NCBI RefSeq assembly: GCF_006345805.1
Contig: NC_043003.1
Span: 96,906,001 to 96,970,000 of the forward strand
Origin: Octopus sinensis
Lineage: Eukaryota
DNA length: 64,000 nt
Direction: 5' to 3'
Made by a program: the position numbers and the translations under genes. Under the pieces are notes generated by a model. It was not told where the DNA came from. It saw only the letters and a list, made by a program, of their open reading frames with translations, and ran no database searches. The number at the start of each line of letters is the position of its first letter. Position 1 is the stretch's first letter. Positions 14,343 to 57,640 of this stretch are shown here, one piece after another.

Positions 14343-14681
14343 CCGATATACAGCCGCCTCCGATCGGAAGAGGAGCGGCCCGTTTCGCCCGTTCCGAGTT
14401 CGAGAGTAGATCGAGGCCGTCAACGTCCCGGAGCCTCCAGTCGTTAACTTTACCGGACAGAATTGCGTGTCGTTCTCCCGCTGGCGCCAGCTATCTTGAG
14501 GGAAACTTTGGAGGGAACCAGCTAATAGACGGCTCGATTGGTCTTTTGCCCCTACACCCGGTTCCAACGATCGATTTGCACGTCAGAGGTGTTTCGGACT
14601 TCCACCAGAGTTTCCTCTGGCTTCGTCCCGACCGGGCGTGGATCGCCATCTTTCGGGTCCACGGCCTCCTGCTACACCTGA
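14343..14681 (-). pseudogene. dispersed 28S rRNA fragment
   Basis: Conserved LSU blocks GACCCGAAAGATGG, GAAGCCAGAGGAAACTCTGGTGGA, CTGACGTGCAAATCG, AGCTGGTTCCCTCC.AAGTTTCCCTCA.GATAGCTGG and CCGGTAAAG. Confidence 0.9.
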
Positions 14682-32437: not shown

Positions 32438-32915
32438 AAGGCGGCGAGGTGGTTTCGGGGTCGATAAATTAAGTACCAGTTATGCACTGGGGTCGATATA
32501 ATCGACTTAATCCGTTCGTCTGTCCTTGTTTGTCCTCTCTGTGTTTAGCCCCTTGTGGGTAGTAAAGAAATAGGTATTTCGTCTGCCGCTACGTTCTGAG
32601 TTCAAATTCCGCCGAGGTCGACTTTGCCTTTCATACTTTCGGGGTCGATTAAATAAGTACCAGTTACGCAATGGGGTCGATATAATCGACTTAATCCGTT
32701 TGTCTGTCCTTGTTTGTCCCCTCTGTGTTTAGCCCCTTGTGGGTAGTAAAGAAATAGGTATTTCGTCTGTCTTTATGTTCTGAGTTCGAATTCAGCCAAG
32801 GTCGACTTTGATTCTCATCGCTTTCGATAAAATAAATACTAGTTGAGCACTAAGGTCAATGTAATCGACTTACCTCCACCCCCGAAATTATCGGTCTTGT
32901 GCCAAAACTTGAATC
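32438..32915 (+). mobile_element. head-to-tail array of Meta-like SINE units
   Basis: A ~183-nt unit repeated about 2.5 times, with junction AAAGAAATAGG|TATTTCGTCTG. Confidence 0.85.
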
Positions 32916-37719: not shown

Positions 37720-39223
37720 AGTTAGTATAAGATATAATTTTTAACATTTTATGGAGTGAGGACGTGGAACAAGTATAGAGTTATTGTGTTATTCGAAAAT
37801 TTAGTCATCAGTGTCAACAACCATATCCAATTTACTATGAAATATAGTCAAAACCTACTTCCATTTCTAGACATTCTTATTATAAAAAAGGCACCAAAAT
37901 TTAAACTAATATCCACTACAAACCAAATGATTCCAAACAATACCTCCTGTCAACCTCTACTCACCCAAAGTATACGAAGACAAACATCCCCTTCAATCTA
38001 GCGAGAAGAATCTGTACATTGTCTCAAATTAAAGAACGCGAAATAAAAGACTCCAAGAACTAAAGGCAATTTTTCTCGAAAGGCAGTACCCAGCATCATT
38101 AGTTGACAATGGAATAGAACGGGCCAAGACAATCGATATCCAAGACTTGTGAAAACCGAAACACACTCAAGGTCCATTACACAGCCTTCCATATCTCTCA
38201 ACACACAATCCAAGAAATACAGAAGCTTACATGATTATATACAAGAACACCCCACTTCTGAGTGAAGACCCACGTCAAAAAAGTACTCGAAAGCCTTAAA
38301 ATAATAAAAAGCAAGAGACAACCGAAATCCGTAAAAAACTTACTCACCAATGCAAAATTACCCAACACTCACCGTCAACAAATTGGGTCGATCTAACTGC
38401 AGGACTCGCATCCTCCTCATTCAAGGAACACTATACAAATTCCAGTCAGGACTCACTTGTAAAACAAAACTTCACCTGTGCATCAAAAAATCTACTTTAT
38501 GCCATTAGGCGTGAAGGGTTTCACAAAGACTACAGAGTGCAGACTAGTCTTACCCTCAGAGATAGGATGACAGTCCACCGCCAACAATTGAGGGACCCCA
38601 TCACAAGACAGATACCACTTAGTGGCCACTTAGATCTCTGTGCACAAAACAAGTCCCTAGTTTTCCCACTGTACCAATGCCCAGACAACACCACTGACCA
38701 AATACGAATGAGGAAAATATACTTATTCAAAAATACAGACCACAACCCAACATACTCTAACATACCCCCAGGTACGCATCCACAACAAACACACTCAGGA
38801 ACATACACAGATGTACAAACACACACACAAATACAATGCAAACCTCCCACACAAACATACACACATACATATTCACACACGCGCAAACACAATATCCTTA
38901 CGCTCGAGCACAAACCCACACACATTCCAAGAAAAAAACACATACGTATATACACATGCAATACGACTCTAGTAATCACAACCAACACTCACATACACAC
39001 GCACACACACTGACACACATACACACACACGTACAAACACATTCACACACATGCGCACACACAGTACATAGACAAATACAAATCACATACATACACACAC
39101 ACACACAAGTTCACACATATACACGCACCATCCTGCTAAATATAAAACACACATATACACAGACCCATGCATAGACCTCGCTGAACTCTAATACCTATCC
39201 CCCAAAAATCCCTCACACAAACA

Positions 39224-39921: not shown

Positions 39922-39925
<4 letters not shown>
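37720..39925 (+). mobile_element. degenerate Penelope-like (Neptune-type) element
   Basis: IQFTMKYSQNLLPFLDILI (RT motif 7), HPKYTKTNIPFNLARRIC (thumb), NFTCASKNLLY..QTSLTLRDRMTVHRQQLRDP..PLSGHLD (GIY-YIG), then a low-complexity 3' region. Confidence 0.8.
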
Positions 39926-39966
<41 letters not shown>

Positions 39967-40001
39967 TATATATATTTATATGCCAATTGCCTCCCCTGGC
40001 T

Positions 40002-40109
40002 TCTTTGCCGATGAGATGGGCCAGTGGTAAATTGATTTAATTAAATTAAATTTAATTTAATTGAGCTGGTTTGCCAAAAAGTACGTCGAAACTATGCATA
40101 GTCCAAAGA
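40002..40109 (+). ncRNA. type-I hammerhead ribozyme motif (U4C core, GUC site, palindromic stem III)
   Basis: TCTTTG-CCGATGA-GATG..CGTC-GAAA-CTATGCATAG-TC-CAAAGA, in a ~265-nt island (39980-40245) between (TA)n tracts. Confidence 0.75.
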
Positions 40110-40313
40110 TGATAAGGGTAAATGTTTTTAACTTTCCTTTGATTTCTGAATTACTACTATTTAGCGGTTTGAGTATGGCTGCTCATTTTAGTGAGTTGAA
40201 TGGCCTGTTAAGGCCATTCCTTAATATTATTGTTGAATGTACATTATATATATATAAAGATGTACTATATATATATATATACATATATAAAGATGTATAT
40301 ATATAATTATATA

Positions 40314-40344
<31 letters not shown>

Positions 40345-40545
40345 AAGGAAGAACAACAAGATGTATTAAGCTTGATGCTCAGGAAAAATGGAAGAGTCTG
40401 TGATGTATTGCGCCTACGCGCCTCTACAGAAGGAAATGAAGAAAGAAAAAGGATGGAGAGAGAAAAAAGAAGAGAGAGAAAAAAGGAGATAAATATAAAT
40501 GCGACTGGATTAACGGTTGCGCATGTTGAACTGACCGGAAGGATA
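40345..40545 (-). mobile_element. degenerate solo pLTR of a Neptune-like PLE
   Basis: Resembles 55440-55600; has a decayed hammerhead CTGTAGAGGCGCGTAGGCGCAATAC. Confidence 0.5.
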
Positions 40546-41209
40546 GAATATGAAAACAGTAACAAACCATTATAATCTAGTTATCGTCATGTACTTTCTG
40601 TGGCGGAAATCCGCCTGAGAAAACGCATGCTTCCCACCTAAAAATCTTATGCCAATTGCCTAGTGGTAAAATTCGTTGCTGTCGTTGAAATGATTTACTC
40701 GAAAAATATAAGGGAAATTGATATATCATTAATTCTATCCTCACATTGTGAGAAGCTCTGCACATGATCTTCTTTCTTTATCATTTCAATTTGCTTCAAG
40801 CGAACAATCTCGTTCTTCCCTAAAATCATATGTTTTAAAAACCGTTGGTGCATAGCTAGGTAGCCCTTTTAGTATCACAAGTGGAATCTATGTACATTGT
40901 TTGAGAACCACGGACACAAATGGTTGCAGAAACTGGCGCACCATCACAGCATTATAGAATTGAAAAAACTCCAGTAAACAGCATTAGGAACAAGCAACAA
41001 CTACAATATTAGCAAGTGACACGAGTTAAGTCATGACTCTCAATGCTATTTCAGTGGTTTGTCAGTGTCAGTTATAACGTGATCAAACTAACTCCCTACT
41101 TCCTTCCGTACAATCATAGCAAGACGTTCAAGCGTTTGAAGTGCACATCTTCAGGCATGCAAACTTAAAAGAAACTTTGCAACAACAACAACAACGGCAA
41201 CAATAATGA

Positions 41210-48145: not shown

Positions 48146-48375
48146 GGTAGTCAAGATAAAACTCTGAGTTTCAGATGCCGAAGTGGAAATCCACAACACC
48201 ATCTCTTCGGTTATCTGGCTATTTGAAAACGTTATGAAAAAATACCGTTAAAAATGAAGGGAAATTACTCTGTTATAACTCTGCTTTGCCTGCGTACTTA
48301 TACATCGCTCGCATTTTTCGTCATAAAAATTATATAAAAATACATAAAAATATATAAAAATATATAAAAATATAC

Positions 48376-50114
48376 AACTCTTACACAACAGCATCATTAA
48401 TAATTATACTAAGGCTAGGGCACAGACATATAACGAAATTAATAAAGAAGCTAGCGTCATCGCCGCTAAACTTAAATTAGATAAAAAAATAGAAACCCTC
48501 CCCCAAAAAGAGGCCTTTATTACTATTAAAGACCACAAAGAAAACTTCTTTTCCAACCCTAAATGTAGGCTTATCAACCCAGCCAAGTCAGAACTAGGGA
48601 TTATTAGCAAAGAAATTTTAGATAAAAATAATACGAAAATTAAGACCGATACTAGGCTAGTGCAATGGTCCAATAGTATAGAAGTCGTAGACTGTTTAAA
48701 GCTATTAAGAATAAGAAAAAAGCGAGGTTTACACAATTCGATATTGTTGATTTTTATGCCTCTATCTCTAAAGAACTGCTAGATAAAGCCCTAATCTTCG
48801 CTAGTGACTTCATAGAAATTAGTACCAATGATAAGGATATAATCTTCCATGCTAGAAAGACATTACTTTTCAGTGAGAATGCAAAGTGGGTAAAAAAACA
48901 CCGACACGGAGGGCGCTTTCGATGTGAGCATGGGTTCATATGATGGGGCAGGTATCTGTGATCTAATTGGACTCTTTCTCCTAGATACCTTCGGTAAGAC
49001 ATTCCCTAACGTACATTTCGCCATCTACAAAGATGATGCCCTCGCCTTAACAGCTAATACAAATGGACCAGCACAAGATCGTTTTAGGAAGGATATTATC
49101 CAGTTAATGAAACACTTCGGACTTAGTATAACTATAGACACTAACCTGACGGTTGTCAATTTCTTAGACGTTTCCTTAGATCTTAATAATAATATTTATA
49201 AGCCTTATAGGAAGCCCAATGATAGACTAAGTTATATTAATGTAGGTTCATGCCATCCCCCTATAGTATTCAAAAATTTAGTTAAAAATATTAGTAAGAG
49301 GATTTCTAGCCTCTCATCTAATGAGGACATCTTTAATAGCGTTGCCCCAGTTTATAATAAAGCTTTAAAAGATAGTGGTTTTAGCGAAAAAATAAAATAT
49401 ACACCTATCACCAGCCCAACAATAAGGAAAAGGAATAATAGAAATAGGAAGGTCATCTGGTTTACGCCCCCTTACTCACCCGAGGTGGCTTTTAATATAG
49501 GTAAATACTTCCTAGCACTGATAGATAGACATTTTCCAGTTAACCATGCTTATAGGAAACTCTTCAATAGACACAATTTAAAAATTAGTTTTAGTTCAAC
49601 TACCAATTTTAAAAACATAATCAATCATAACATACAAAAAACACAAGAAGAAAACAGCTGTTCATGCAGGAATAAAGAATGTGCCCGCTAAATGGAGCTT
49701 GCATGTCCAAGACCATCATATATGAAGCTACCGTAAACTCTATAACCAAAAGACACCGTTTCGACGAAGAAATACGTGGGCCTGACAGAGGGTAATTTCA
49801 AGGCCAGGTTCAATAACCACACTTTGAGCTTTAGGCACTGGAACAAAAGAAAAGCGACACAATTATCCAATCATATTTGGTCTTTAAGAGATAAAGGTGT
49901 CGATTATAACATACAATGGAAGATTTTGGCCAGATGTAAGCCCTATACTAACGGCAGCGGAAGGTGCGGTTTATGCGACATGGAGAGATGGCTTATCTGG
50001 AAAAGCAGCTTAGACCCTACCACATGTCTAAATACAAGAACAGAGCTTTTCGGATCATGCCCACATGTGACTAAATTTCTGTTACGTTTTTGGTCCCCTA
50101 AAGAAAACGGATAG
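48376..50114 (+). pseudogene. PLE reverse transcriptase + GIY-YIG endonuclease, frameshifted
   Basis: ITIKDHKENF..CRLINPAKSELG, FDIVDFYASI, MGSYDGAGICD, YKDD, NFLDVSLDL, CSCR..CPL..C..IIY..YVGLTEGNFKARFNNH..CGLC..C..H; about three frameshifts. Confidence 0.9.
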
Positions 50115-55394: not shown

Positions 55395-56785
55395 ACATAA
55401 CGGGAAGCTTTATGAAAATAAACAAAAGACGAAGGCAGGTGGAAAACAAACGAACAATTGTATTAGTATGGCGCTCAGGAAATATAAATAAAACAAGTCT
55501 TTAACGTTTCGAGCCTACGCTCTTCAACAGAAAGATACACAGAGAGAGAAAAAACACAGAAAGAAGGAGAGAAAAAAAATGCGTGCAGTAGAACGAATCA
55601 ACATGGCGATCTGATTTCGGCCAGAGGTCAAAGATCAAACATGAGACGCGAGAGCGCGAAATAAGGGGAGATAATAGGGTTGAAATGGGTTGAGGGACCA
55701 GCTAAAAGTGCGTGGGAGGGGTCTGGATGTGTGTATGTATAGGGTTGGTGTATGTATTAGTATGTATAAGGGTGTGTGTGTGTGGGTGTGTGTGTGTGTT
55801 ATGAGAGAGTATTAGTGCGTAAGATTGGTCTGGACGTGCGTATGTATGGGGTGGTGTATGTATTAGTATGTATTAGTATGTATTAGTACGTATTGGTATG
55901 TATAGGTGTGTGTGTGTGTGTGTGAGAGAGTATAAGTGCGTATGCGGGGTCTGGACGTGTGTATGTATAGGGTTGGTGTAAGTATTAGTATGTACTAGTA
56001 TGTATTAGTACGTATTAGTATGTATTAGTTGGTGTGTGTATTAGTATGGCACATCATATGTGATGTGATGTGTAAAGTCATGTGGTGTAGTGAGGAGAAG
56101 AGGGGGACGGGGAGAAGAGGGGGAGGGGAGAAGAGGGGGACGGGGAGAAGAGGGGGAGGGGAGAAGAGGGGGACGGGGAGAAGAGGGGGAGGGGAGGAAG
56201 AGGGGGGGGGGAGAAGGGGAGGGGAAGAAGAGGGGGGAGAGGAGAAGGGGGGGGAGGGAGGAGAGGATGGGGAGAAGGAAGGGGGGAGATGAGGGGGAGA
56301 GAGAAGGGGAGAGAGGGAGTGAGGGAGCAGAGGGAAGGGAAAGAGGGAGGGAGAAAGAGGGAAGAAGGGAAGGGGAGTAGGGGTGTGAAAGGATGAAGGA
56401 CTGAAGAAGTAGGGGTCGGGGGGGAGAAAGGATAGGTGAGGAGGGGGTGAGGTTAGATGAGGAGGGGGGGAGAGTTGAGACCAAATGGCGTATAAGAGAG
56501 AGAGAGAGAGATTAATTCCTGTTCACGGCGCAAACGGGAATCCGGATGGCCTCTGTGTAAGGACAAACCGAACACAGATAGGTGTTGCAAGGAGTGACCG
56601 GTGGAGCGGAAATGGCGTGAGACCGGTGTGTCGTTCGCAAGGTGGATGTCACGAAGGTGTTCCGCGAACCGGTCAGCCAAGCGGCGTCCCGTTTGTCCGA
56701 TGTACAAGGAATTGCAGAGAGAGCAAGAGATGCAATAGATAATATTGCTGGAGGTGCAGGTGAAGGAGTGGATGATGGGATACAT
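55395..56785 (-). mobile_element. Penelope-like (Neptune-type) element, 3' part
   Basis: ORF 56453-56785: HSFTCTSSNIIYCISCSLCNSLYIGQTGRRLADRFAEHLRDI..VSRHF..REQELI..PFGLN; then a low-complexity spacer and a pLTR with a hammerhead motif. Confidence 0.88.
55498..55535 (-). ncRNA. minimal hammerhead-like motif (A6U) in pLTR
   Basis: TCTTT-CTGTTGA-A-GAGC-GTAG-GCTC-GAAA-CG-TT-AAAGA. Confidence 0.55.
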
Positions 56786-57640
56786 GCATATGTATATATA
56801 TATAGATATATAATTTTTTTAAAGATTATATTTATATATATATGTATTTATATATGAAGCGCGCGCGTAGGTGTGTCTGTAAGATCCAGGAGTGTGCAAG
56901 GTTCATGAGTGTGTGTGTGCGTGTGGAAAGTTCATAAACTGGGAACGTTAGTAACAGCCTAACGATAATTATTATACACGGCATGAGAAAATGGAGTGAT
57001 TTGAAGAAATTAGAAATATTCCTCAAAGAAATAACAACATACTATGGAATTTTGATTTGGCAGCAAGGGACAACAATGAGAACATGTCTATCCCTCATTT
57101 GGTGCTTCCGAATCAAATGTAGGATTTTCAATGATAAATATAAATTTCATAAAACACTACACCGTTAAGTTGCATAAATAAAATGAGACTCAAGAGCTAA
57201 GAAAAAATAGCTAAAAAAGGCTAACGCTCTGCATGGAATTTGATAACAAACTCAATGATACTGAAGATATATATTTGTACAAGACTTCATACTACCTCCT
57301 CCTTTTCTCTCTCCCTCACTCTCTCGGTAAGTATTTGTAGGGGTCTGAATTATAGCTGTAAGGTTGAAGTAGGCGCAGGTATGTGTGTTTTGTAAAGAAG
57401 TTTGCTTCCTATTAACACAGTTTCGGGTTCAGTTCCACATATCCCCTTGAGCAAGTGTCTTCTATAGCCCCGAGCCTTGTGAGTAAATTTGGTAAACAGA
57501 AACTGAAATAAGCTGGTTTTATATATATATATATATATATACCAGAGTAAGCACATAAATGCGAAACAAGGTGAAAAAAGGTGTACTCGAATAACAGAGG
57601 TAAAGAAATATGCTTTATTAAAAAGCAACAAAAATATAAA

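What the first reader, a model, noticed from the sequence alone, without database searches (positions are those of the whole stretch)
39980..40245. Stand-alone ribozyme island: CCGAUGA core, GUC site, 12-nt palindromic stem III
Seen: a perfect 6-bp stem I (TCTTTG/CAAAGA), stem II extended by a long AT palindrome, and self-complementary ACTATGCATAGT next to the canonical GUC triplet, with no ORF. A palindromic stem III suggests dimeric cleavage between tandem copies, as known for minimal PLE and retrozyme hammerheads.
Basis: partly seen in the sequence, partly recalled or inferred. Interest (0 to 1): 0.72.

Follow-up and report, generated by a model that had tools for sequence, protein, structure and literature searches.

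The report
Hammerhead retrozyme spread by Penelope elements
This is a well-conserved hammerhead ribozyme fold, predicted to cut its own RNA, inside one cut-short copy of a protein-free repeat of about 486 bases that occurs hundreds of times in this animal genome and was likely pasted in by Penelope-type jumping genes: a new family of a known kind of element.

Summary
The motif is real and the coordinates are right: a type I hammerhead at 40002-40109 (core CCGAUGA = U4C, cut predicted after C40103). All three stems covary over 81 genomic copies. It is not stand-alone: it is a 259-nt, 5'-truncated solo copy (39992-40250) of a non-coding 470-496-nt unit, with four subfamilies (70-93% alike) and 553 matches to one terminal motif. 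Copies have two fixed 3' ends at (TA)n, ragged 5' ends, head-to-head inversions (26 of 64 sites) and rare tandems up to about 3.9 units: Penelope-type anatomy, i.e. an animal non-LTR retrozyme. Added here: a likely 5-bp tail/loop-II pseudoknot kept in all subfamilies, and 5' ends piling up just 3' of the cut site (18 of 61 sites, 6.7 expected; window chosen after looking). Dimer cleavage is plausible but not needed (4-bp stem III), and this copy has no tandem partner. The autonomous partner was not identified; cleavage, expression and circles are untested. The scan earlier noted similar, possibly the same, families on other DNA of this genome and in other genomes.

The parts
39992..40250 (+). 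5'-truncated solo copy of the 486-nt retrozyme unit (unit positions 375-486 plus 1-147, counted from the cut site), subfamily A
   Evidence: 93.8% identical over 259 nt to the natural unit of L013; only copy in the window
39996..40000 (+). 5' tail CUGGC, predicted to pair with loop II (pseudoknot)
40002..40007 (+). Stem I, 5' strand
40008..40014 (+). Catalytic core CCGAUGA (C3-A9, U4C variant)
   Evidence: 42 of 84 parsed copies have this core
40015..40018 (+). Stem II, 5' strand
40020..40024 (+). Loop II GCCAG, predicted pseudoknot partner of 39996-40000
40025..40076 (+). Long AT-rich hairpin extending stem II
40084..40087 (+). Stem II, 3' strand
40088..40090 (+). G12-A13-A14 of the core
   Evidence: GAA in 79 of 84 copies
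40091..40102 (+). Stem III: 12-nt palindrome (4 bp plus UGCA loop as monomer, 12-bp duplex as dimer)
40103..40103 (+). C17, predicted cleavage 3' of this base
   Evidence: hammerhead numbering is established knowledge
40104..40109 (+). Stem I, 3' strand
40198..40219 (+). Hairpin just upstream of the first family 3' terminus; compensated in subfamily C
40220..40250 (+). Family 3' terminus I (unit position about 128-147), merging into (TA)n by a TATATA overlap; likely start of reverse transcription
39923..39981 (.). (TA)n tract, 5' side of the target
40245..40344 (.). (TA)n tract, 3' side of the target
39979..39992 (+). 14-nt junction sequence identical to 40648-40661; templated filler or duplication

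Best explanation
The stretch is a dead-end, 5'-truncated copy of a non-coding 470-496-nt repeat family that carries a conserved type I hammerhead fold and is likely copied through RNA into (TA)n tracts by the enzyme of an autonomous Penelope-like element, that is, an animal non-LTR retrozyme. Steps: (1, inferred) rare tandem loci or read-through give multi-unit RNA; (2, predicted) the hammerhead, likely braced by a 5-bp tail/loop-II pseudoknot and able to work as a monomer but helped by pairing of two palindromic stems III, cuts after C17, and units may be ligated into circles; (3, shown as anatomy, enzyme inferred) reverse transcription starts at one of two fixed internal sites, about 147 and 233 nt 3' of the cut, primed in (TA)n; (4, shown) it often runs across the cut site into the preceding unit, stops at variable points with an excess just 3' of the cut, and often leaves a head-to-head inverted second arm. 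This copy stopped 10 nt before stem I, holds one ribozyme and cannot release a unit.
For: Repeat family: 48 matches from 40 scored of 1730 candidates; 21 exact intact-core patterns, control 0; 553 matches to terminus II at up to 1 mismatch, control 0. Natural tandem units of 486, 470, 477, 496 nt, 70-93% alike; GC 34-36%, longest sense stop-free frame 37-82 aa, no tRNA; circular fold z = -5.4 against 40 shuffles. Covariation in stems I-III; family D has different stems I and II around the same core, stem III and CUGGC/GCCAG helix. Of 281 arms from 213 loci: 234 end 3' in two zones, 208 have TA-rich 3' flanks against 60 for 5' flanks, 183 cross a cut site; 26 of 64 motif-selected sites are head-to-head. 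These are the PLE marks described in PMC8557442 (passages, section 11) and the two start sites of PMC11167929 (parts 1-2 of 4). Two autonomous Hydra-type PLE families of this genome show the same layout: hammerhead, two 3' termini, (TA)n. 5' ends in unit positions 1-40: 18 of 61 sites, 6.7 expected, p = 6e-5.
Against: No autonomous partner found: the unit shares only a 25-nt motif (84%, E 0.17) with one of two PLE families examined and scores below shuffles in local alignment. The distance between the two termini (about 86-90 nt) is longer than the 30-40-nt PLE tail. U4C lowers activity in vitro (PMC3088659, passage). With the 5' tail included a competing hairpin is 5.8 kcal/mol more stable than the ribozyme fold when the pseudoknot is not scored, and the ribozyme is not formed in the circular minimum-energy fold. 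Only 1 of 9 predicted Xenopus retrozyme dimers cleaved in the 2026 preprint, and PAc inserts mainly from uncleaved RNA (PMC11167929). The 5'-end excess was found after looking at 13 bins, comes mostly from lineage B (26 of 49 arms, 6.0 expected) and is not significant in the window's lineage A (3 of 18, 2.0 expected; A against B p = 0.14). No A>G strand bias as a mark of an RNA stage. Loci were picked by similarity searches, so counts are not a random sample.
Confidence: 0.8

Rival explanations
1. The unit is only the pseudo-LTR of an autonomous PLE whose ORF-bearing copies were not sampled; the window holds an ordinary 3' fragment.
For: Most PLE copies are 5'-truncated 3' ends; autonomous Hydra-type families here have the same layout, one with a long stem II and palindromic stem III.
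Against: 183 of 281 arms run 5'-ward across a cut site and continue into the same unit, up to 1838 nt, with no ORF; long ORFs near sampled loci belong to other repeats.
Confidence: 0.07
2. The family is PLE-mobilised, but from uncut multi-unit RNA; the hammerhead, especially the U4C form, is a slow or inactive passenger, and 5' ends pile up because RT stalls at its structure.
For: U4C fixed in lineage A (42 of 84 copies); no excess of 5' ends at the cut in lineage A; PAc does not need cleavage (PMC11167929); competing hairpin.
Against: Core, three stems and the extra helix are kept through rewiring across subfamilies only 70% alike, which implies selection on the fold; a young autonomous Hydra-type family carries U4C in 43 of 43 parsed ribozymes (CCGAAGA 42); the excess lies 3' of the cut, not inside the long hairpin.
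Confidence: 0.25
3. The ribozyme is an obligate dimer, cutting only when two units pair through stem III.
For: Perfect palindrome kept in all subfamilies; central UGCA in 77-80 of 81 copies; duplex -15.9 kcal/mol (-12.5 without end pairs) against +0.4 to +2.1 for the hairpin; dimers known for animal type I hammerheads (PMC4209133, PMC7229834).
Against: Stem III has 4 pairs and a tetraloop, longer than the 1-2-bp stems that block monomer cleavage (PMC4209133, part 1); hairpins of subfamily C variants are stable alone (-1.6, -1.7); central pairs never covary; only 7 of 281 arms hold two ribozymes.
Confidence: 0.3
4. A stand-alone, host-adopted ribozyme with a local role.
For: The copy is intact from the 5' tail to stem I.
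Against: It is one of many 91-96% identical copies, begins and ends like other insertions, and lies among microsatellites and other repeat remnants.
Confidence: 0.03

Closest known systems
Animal non-LTR retrozymes (Cervera and de la Pena 2020, PMC7229834, parts 2-4 of 6 read; Li, Clavereau and Pollet 2026, bioRxiv 10.64898/2026.07.22.740005, parts 1-3 of 5 read)
   Same: Non-coding, low-GC unit with a type I hammerhead, found as monomers and short tandems, predicted self-paired circle, alongside autonomous PLEs.
   Different: Unit 470-496 nt (150-450 in the 2020 paper, 51-972 in the preprint); 4-bp stem III; stem II with a 50-70-nt insert and a likely pseudoknot instead of canonical loop contacts; U4C lineage; mostly dispersed truncated copies with PLE-type ends rather than long arrays; RNA not tested.
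Hydra-clade PLEs and their pLTR hammerheads (Craig et al. 2021, PMC8557442: passages, section 11, rows of supplement file 1)
   Same: (TA)n targets, partial tandems, 5' truncation, inverted 5' arm, alternative 3' termini, canonical hammerhead.
   Different: No ORF; no significant DNA similarity to the two Hydra-type families checked; the published Hydra-1_Obim hammerhead has an 8-nt loop II and a different stem III.
Minimal PLE hammerheads (Cervera and de la Pena 2014, PMC4209133, parts 1-2 of 4 read)
   Same: Type I, palindromic helix III region, retroelement context.
   Different: This one has 6-bp stem I, 4-bp stem II without the extra 5' nucleotide, and a full stem III: not minimal.
Pseudoknotted and core-variant hammerheads (Perreault et al. 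2011, PMC3088659: passages, sections 7 and 8)
   Same: Stem I/II contact by a Watson-Crick pseudoknot (about 40% of their set); U4C is a known natural variant with reduced activity.
   Different: Here the partner strand lies in an internal loop at the base of a long hairpin, in an animal repeat.
PAc of Anolis (Frangieh et al. 2024, PMC11167929, parts 1-2 of 4 read)
   Same: Two internal start sites of reverse transcription in AT-rich targets, downstream of a hammerhead.
   Different: Starts here overlap the (TA)n target by short homology; PAc showed no RNA ends at the cut site, whereas copies here show an excess of 5' ends near it.

Membership tests
Type I hammerhead ribozyme | Three stems around the core, stem I closing the motif | tested here: met
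Type I hammerhead ribozyme | Core CUGANGA, GAAA, NUH | tested here: inconclusive
   All met except U4C in this copy and lineage A; 37 of 84 copies have CUGAUGA or CUGACGA; U4C is a known, slower natural variant
Type I hammerhead ribozyme | Stem I/II tertiary contact | tested here: inconclusive
   5-bp helix, first pair C-G 51 / U-A 28 of 84, kept in family D; one covarying pair only
Type I hammerhead ribozyme | Self-cleavage | not testable with these tools
   needs in vitro assay
Animal non-LTR retrozyme | Non-coding unit of a few hundred bases, GC under 50% | tested here: met
Animal non-LTR retrozyme | Head-to-tail tandem units each with a type I hammerhead | tested here: met
   Family level: 7 of 281 arms with 2-4 ribozymes. 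The window copy itself is a truncated monomer and fails the preprint's 'active' rule
Animal non-LTR retrozyme | Highly self-paired unit RNA | tested here: met
   Predicted only: z = -5.4, 62-67% paired
Animal non-LTR retrozyme | Expressed as linear and circular RNA | not testable with these tools
   Only assembled contigs were available
Animal non-LTR retrozyme | No LTR, PBS or PPT; long target duplications when present | not tested
   PBS/PPT not searched; (TA)n flanks hide duplications
Non-autonomous PLE derivative | 5' truncation, partial tandems, inverted 5' arm, alternative 3' termini, microsatellite target | tested here: met
Non-autonomous PLE derivative | Sequence kinship with the pLTR of an autonomous PLE | tested here: inconclusive
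   Two of many PLE families checked; one 25-nt motif only
Minimal PLE hammerhead | Absent or tiny helix III, short helix I, extra nucleotide before helix II | tested here: not met

The most novel reading that the evidence does not exclude
The family's insertions record both halves of the proposed retrozyme cycle in vivo: copies that stop just 3' of the cut site come from ribozyme-cut linear RNA, copies that run through it come from ligated circles, and both were written by a Penelope-type enzyme starting at two fixed sites. A pseudoknot into the base of the long stem II would make this a monomer-competent animal hammerhead, and the U4C lineage a natural slow-cutting mutant, giving a ready test of whether cleavage matters for PLE-driven spread.
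Probability: 0.35. Interest if true: 0.55.

Novelty: new member of a known kind. Interest (0 to 1): 0.33.

Why it matters
Papers propose, but those read here do not show, that animal retrozymes are moved by PLE enzymes and that their hammerheads act in the cycle. This family gives anatomical support for the first point and a weak genomic footprint for the second, plus natural variants (U4 against C4 core, four stem III palindromes, rewired stems) for cheap bench tests. The element type, the palindrome, the pseudoknot and U4C each have precedent, the window copy is a dead end, and the scan has noted similar families before, so the surprise is modest.

Tried and rejected
Rfam, whole window and local E-value scan: no hammerhead hit. 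Short-stem-II CCGAUGAG pattern in the genome: 0 matches. Partner search: 30 loci plus 14 longer stretches of one PLE family and 30 loci of another: no kinship beyond one short motif; I first labelled the former Neptune-type from memory and dropped that after checking Hydra motifs (DKT in both; RWK and CxCx5C in the 717-aa family). A>G editing scars: none (156/24809 against T>C 262/39092, p = 0.55). tRNA-like promoter: none. 'U4C lineage cuts less' is not supported at this sample size (Fisher p = 0.14-0.19). Dropped rows: 9 of 93 ribozyme regions could not be parsed and 3 more of 84 with irregular ends were left out of the alignment; 11 of 108 arms with other 3' ends were left out of the 5'-end test. 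PMC5785218 (dimeric PLE hammerheads) is not held; known only from a review passage. Literature: searches 'hammerhead ribozyme + octopus', 'retrozyme + cephalopod', 'octopus + Penelope + non-autonomous + tandem' showed no description of this family; Repbase and Dfam could not be checked, nor the preprint's supplements or the 2020 paper's supplement, which may list it.

Full report
Observation. The sequence shows the motif as described; coordinates: stem I 40002-40007/40104-40109, core CCGAUGA 40008-40014, stem II 40015-40018/40084-40087, GAA 40088-40090, palindromic stem III 40091-40102, C17 at 40103. For 40002-40110 the fold forced to the hammerhead is within 0.6 kcal/mol of the minimum. A descriptor written for this shape hits once in the window and never in 30 shuffled windows. 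Rfam misses it.

It is a repeat copy. A genome search returned 48 matches from 40 scored of 1730 candidates, full-length ones 91-96% identical. Exact patterns: 21 intact ribozymes, 43 5' halves with CCGAUGA, 1 with CUGAUGA in the same context, 553 matches to a terminal motif with up to one mismatch; reversed controls gave 0. Flanks show a unit that continues on both sides and repeats head to tail. Four subfamilies have natural units of 486, 470, 477 and 496 nt, 70-93% alike, GC 34-36%, without long frames or tRNA. The window copy is 39992-40250, unit positions 375-486 plus 1-147, between two (TA)n tracts, and is the only one in the window. The genome (2.7 Gb) is likely an octopus; this is inference from its repeats and from earlier notes, not tested.

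The ribozyme fold is under selection. Of 93 ribozyme regions from subfamilies A-C, 84 were parsed and 81 aligned. 96.5% of pair cells are standard; 6 of 16 pairs change on both sides, two in each stem; covariation 0.229 against 0.103 in shuffles, at most 0.058 slid. Copies are related, so this reflects a handful of events; the count of covarying pairs alone is not beyond shuffles (91 of 500). Cores: CCGAUGA 42, CUGAUGA 25, CUGACGA 12, other 5 of 84; triplet GUC 58, GUA 24, AUC 2. Family D keeps core, stem III and cut site with different stems I and II. U4C is a known natural variant that lowers activity in vitro (PMC3088659, passage); a young autonomous PLE family here has it in 43 of 43 parsed ribozymes.

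A likely pseudoknot. CUGGC (39996-40000) can pair with GCCAG (40020-40024), compatible with stems I and II. First pair C-G 51, U-A 28 of 84; the other four pair in 78-81 of 84. In family D the helix persists in 24-32 of 34 per pair though its neighbours differ. Such contacts are common in hammerheads (PMC3088659 section 7). Against: the same helix is also the base of a competing hairpin that beats the ribozyme fold by 5.8 kcal/mol when the pseudoknot is not scored; its inner pairs are not kept in C and D, which favours the pseudoknot reading.

Monomer or dimer. The palindrome is kept by paired changes at positions 3 and 4; the central UGCA is nearly invariant and so uninformative. Energies favour the duplex (-15.9, or -12.5 without end pairs) over the hairpin (+0.4, +2.1), but a 4-bp stem III is longer than the 1-2-bp stems that force dimers (PMC4209133). 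Only 7 of 281 arms carry two or more complete ribozymes, 131 carry one, 143 none. I judge monomer-capable, dimer-assisted; this copy has no cis partner.

How it spreads. Over 281 arms from 213 loci (chosen by similarity or motif, not at random): 234 have 3' ends in two zones near unit positions 147 and 233; 208 have TA-rich 3' flanks, 60 TA-rich 5' flanks; 183 cross a cut site; the longest is 1838 nt. 26 of 64 motif-selected sites have head-to-head arms. These are PLE marks (PMC8557442) and match two internal start sites shown for PAc (PMC11167929). Two autonomous families with Hydra motifs share the layout but not the sequence, apart from a 25-nt motif at 84%; the partner is unidentified.

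A footprint near the cut. In loci picked only by the 3' motif, 5' ends fall in unit positions 1-40 in 29 of 97 arms (11.1 expected) and 18 of 61 sites with one arm each (6.7 expected, p = 6e-5); flanks there are varied, so it is not an unmapped upstream variant. The window was chosen after seeing 13 bins, the ends are spread over 40 nt rather than at position 1, and the excess comes from lineage B; lineage A shows 3 of 18 (2.0 expected), A against B not significant. Cut linear templates explain it; stalling of the enzyme at the ribozyme does too. No A>G bias was found. Crossing of the cut site fits circles or uncut multimers equally.

RNA data. Only assembled contigs were available; they say nothing on expression, ends or circles.

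Comparison and verdict. It works like, and on all testable features belongs to, the animal non-LTR retrozymes (PMC7229834; preprint 10.64898/2026.07.22.740005); it is not a minimal PLE hammerhead. Three paper searches found no description of this family; repeat databases were not available. Earlier scan notes describe similar families in this genome (about 480-500 nt, long stem II) and others; they are unverified leads, reached after my reading was set, except that they led me to the Hydra label and the editing test. Verdict: real motif, ordinary copy, new member of a known kind; interest 0.33.

Noticed in passing
window 39979-39992 and 40648-40661: An exact 14-nt repeat: the sequence between the 5' (TA)n and the start of the copy recurs about 400 nt beyond its 3' end, there followed by 9 nt that also occur in loop II. 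Templated junction filler or a duplication around a composite insertion.
   Followed up: partly
window 40351-40466, minus strand: Decayed copy (70-73% identity) of another, abundant repeat end with a minimal hammerhead-like core, seen intact beside L008, L013, L123, L210.
   Followed up: partly
window 48348-50111, plus strand: Frameshifted copy of a young 717-aa Hydra-type PLE (84% over 591 aa to L149) whose terminal hammerhead has a U4C core (CCGAAGA) in 42 of 43 parsed copies.
   Followed up: partly
L092-L105: Autonomous PLE family with ORF of about 900 aa, a long low-complexity insert before the endonuclease and no CxCx5C match; terminal hammerhead with about 50-nt stem II, 8-nt palindromic stem III and 3' termini about 60 and 217 nt after the cut.
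   Followed up: partly
L113 2200-3024 (minus-strand numbering): Family D copy inserted directly beside a family B copy in the same (TA)n tract; family copies often sit next to other PLEs (L013, L022, L036), consistent with a shared target.
   Followed up: yes
window 14518-14659, minus strand: Isolated fragment of large-subunit rRNA (Rfam RF02543, E 2e-36).
   Followed up: no
window 37765-38284 and 56456-56818: Further PLE remnants: RT fragments (plus strand) and a GIY-YIG fragment (minus strand).
   Followed up: no
L061 1480-1953: A family copy whose ribozyme is split by an insertion of about 345 nt inside the stem II hairpin.
   Followed up: no
window 32453-32810: Two tandem 184-nt copies of a common interspersed repeat.
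   Followed up: no
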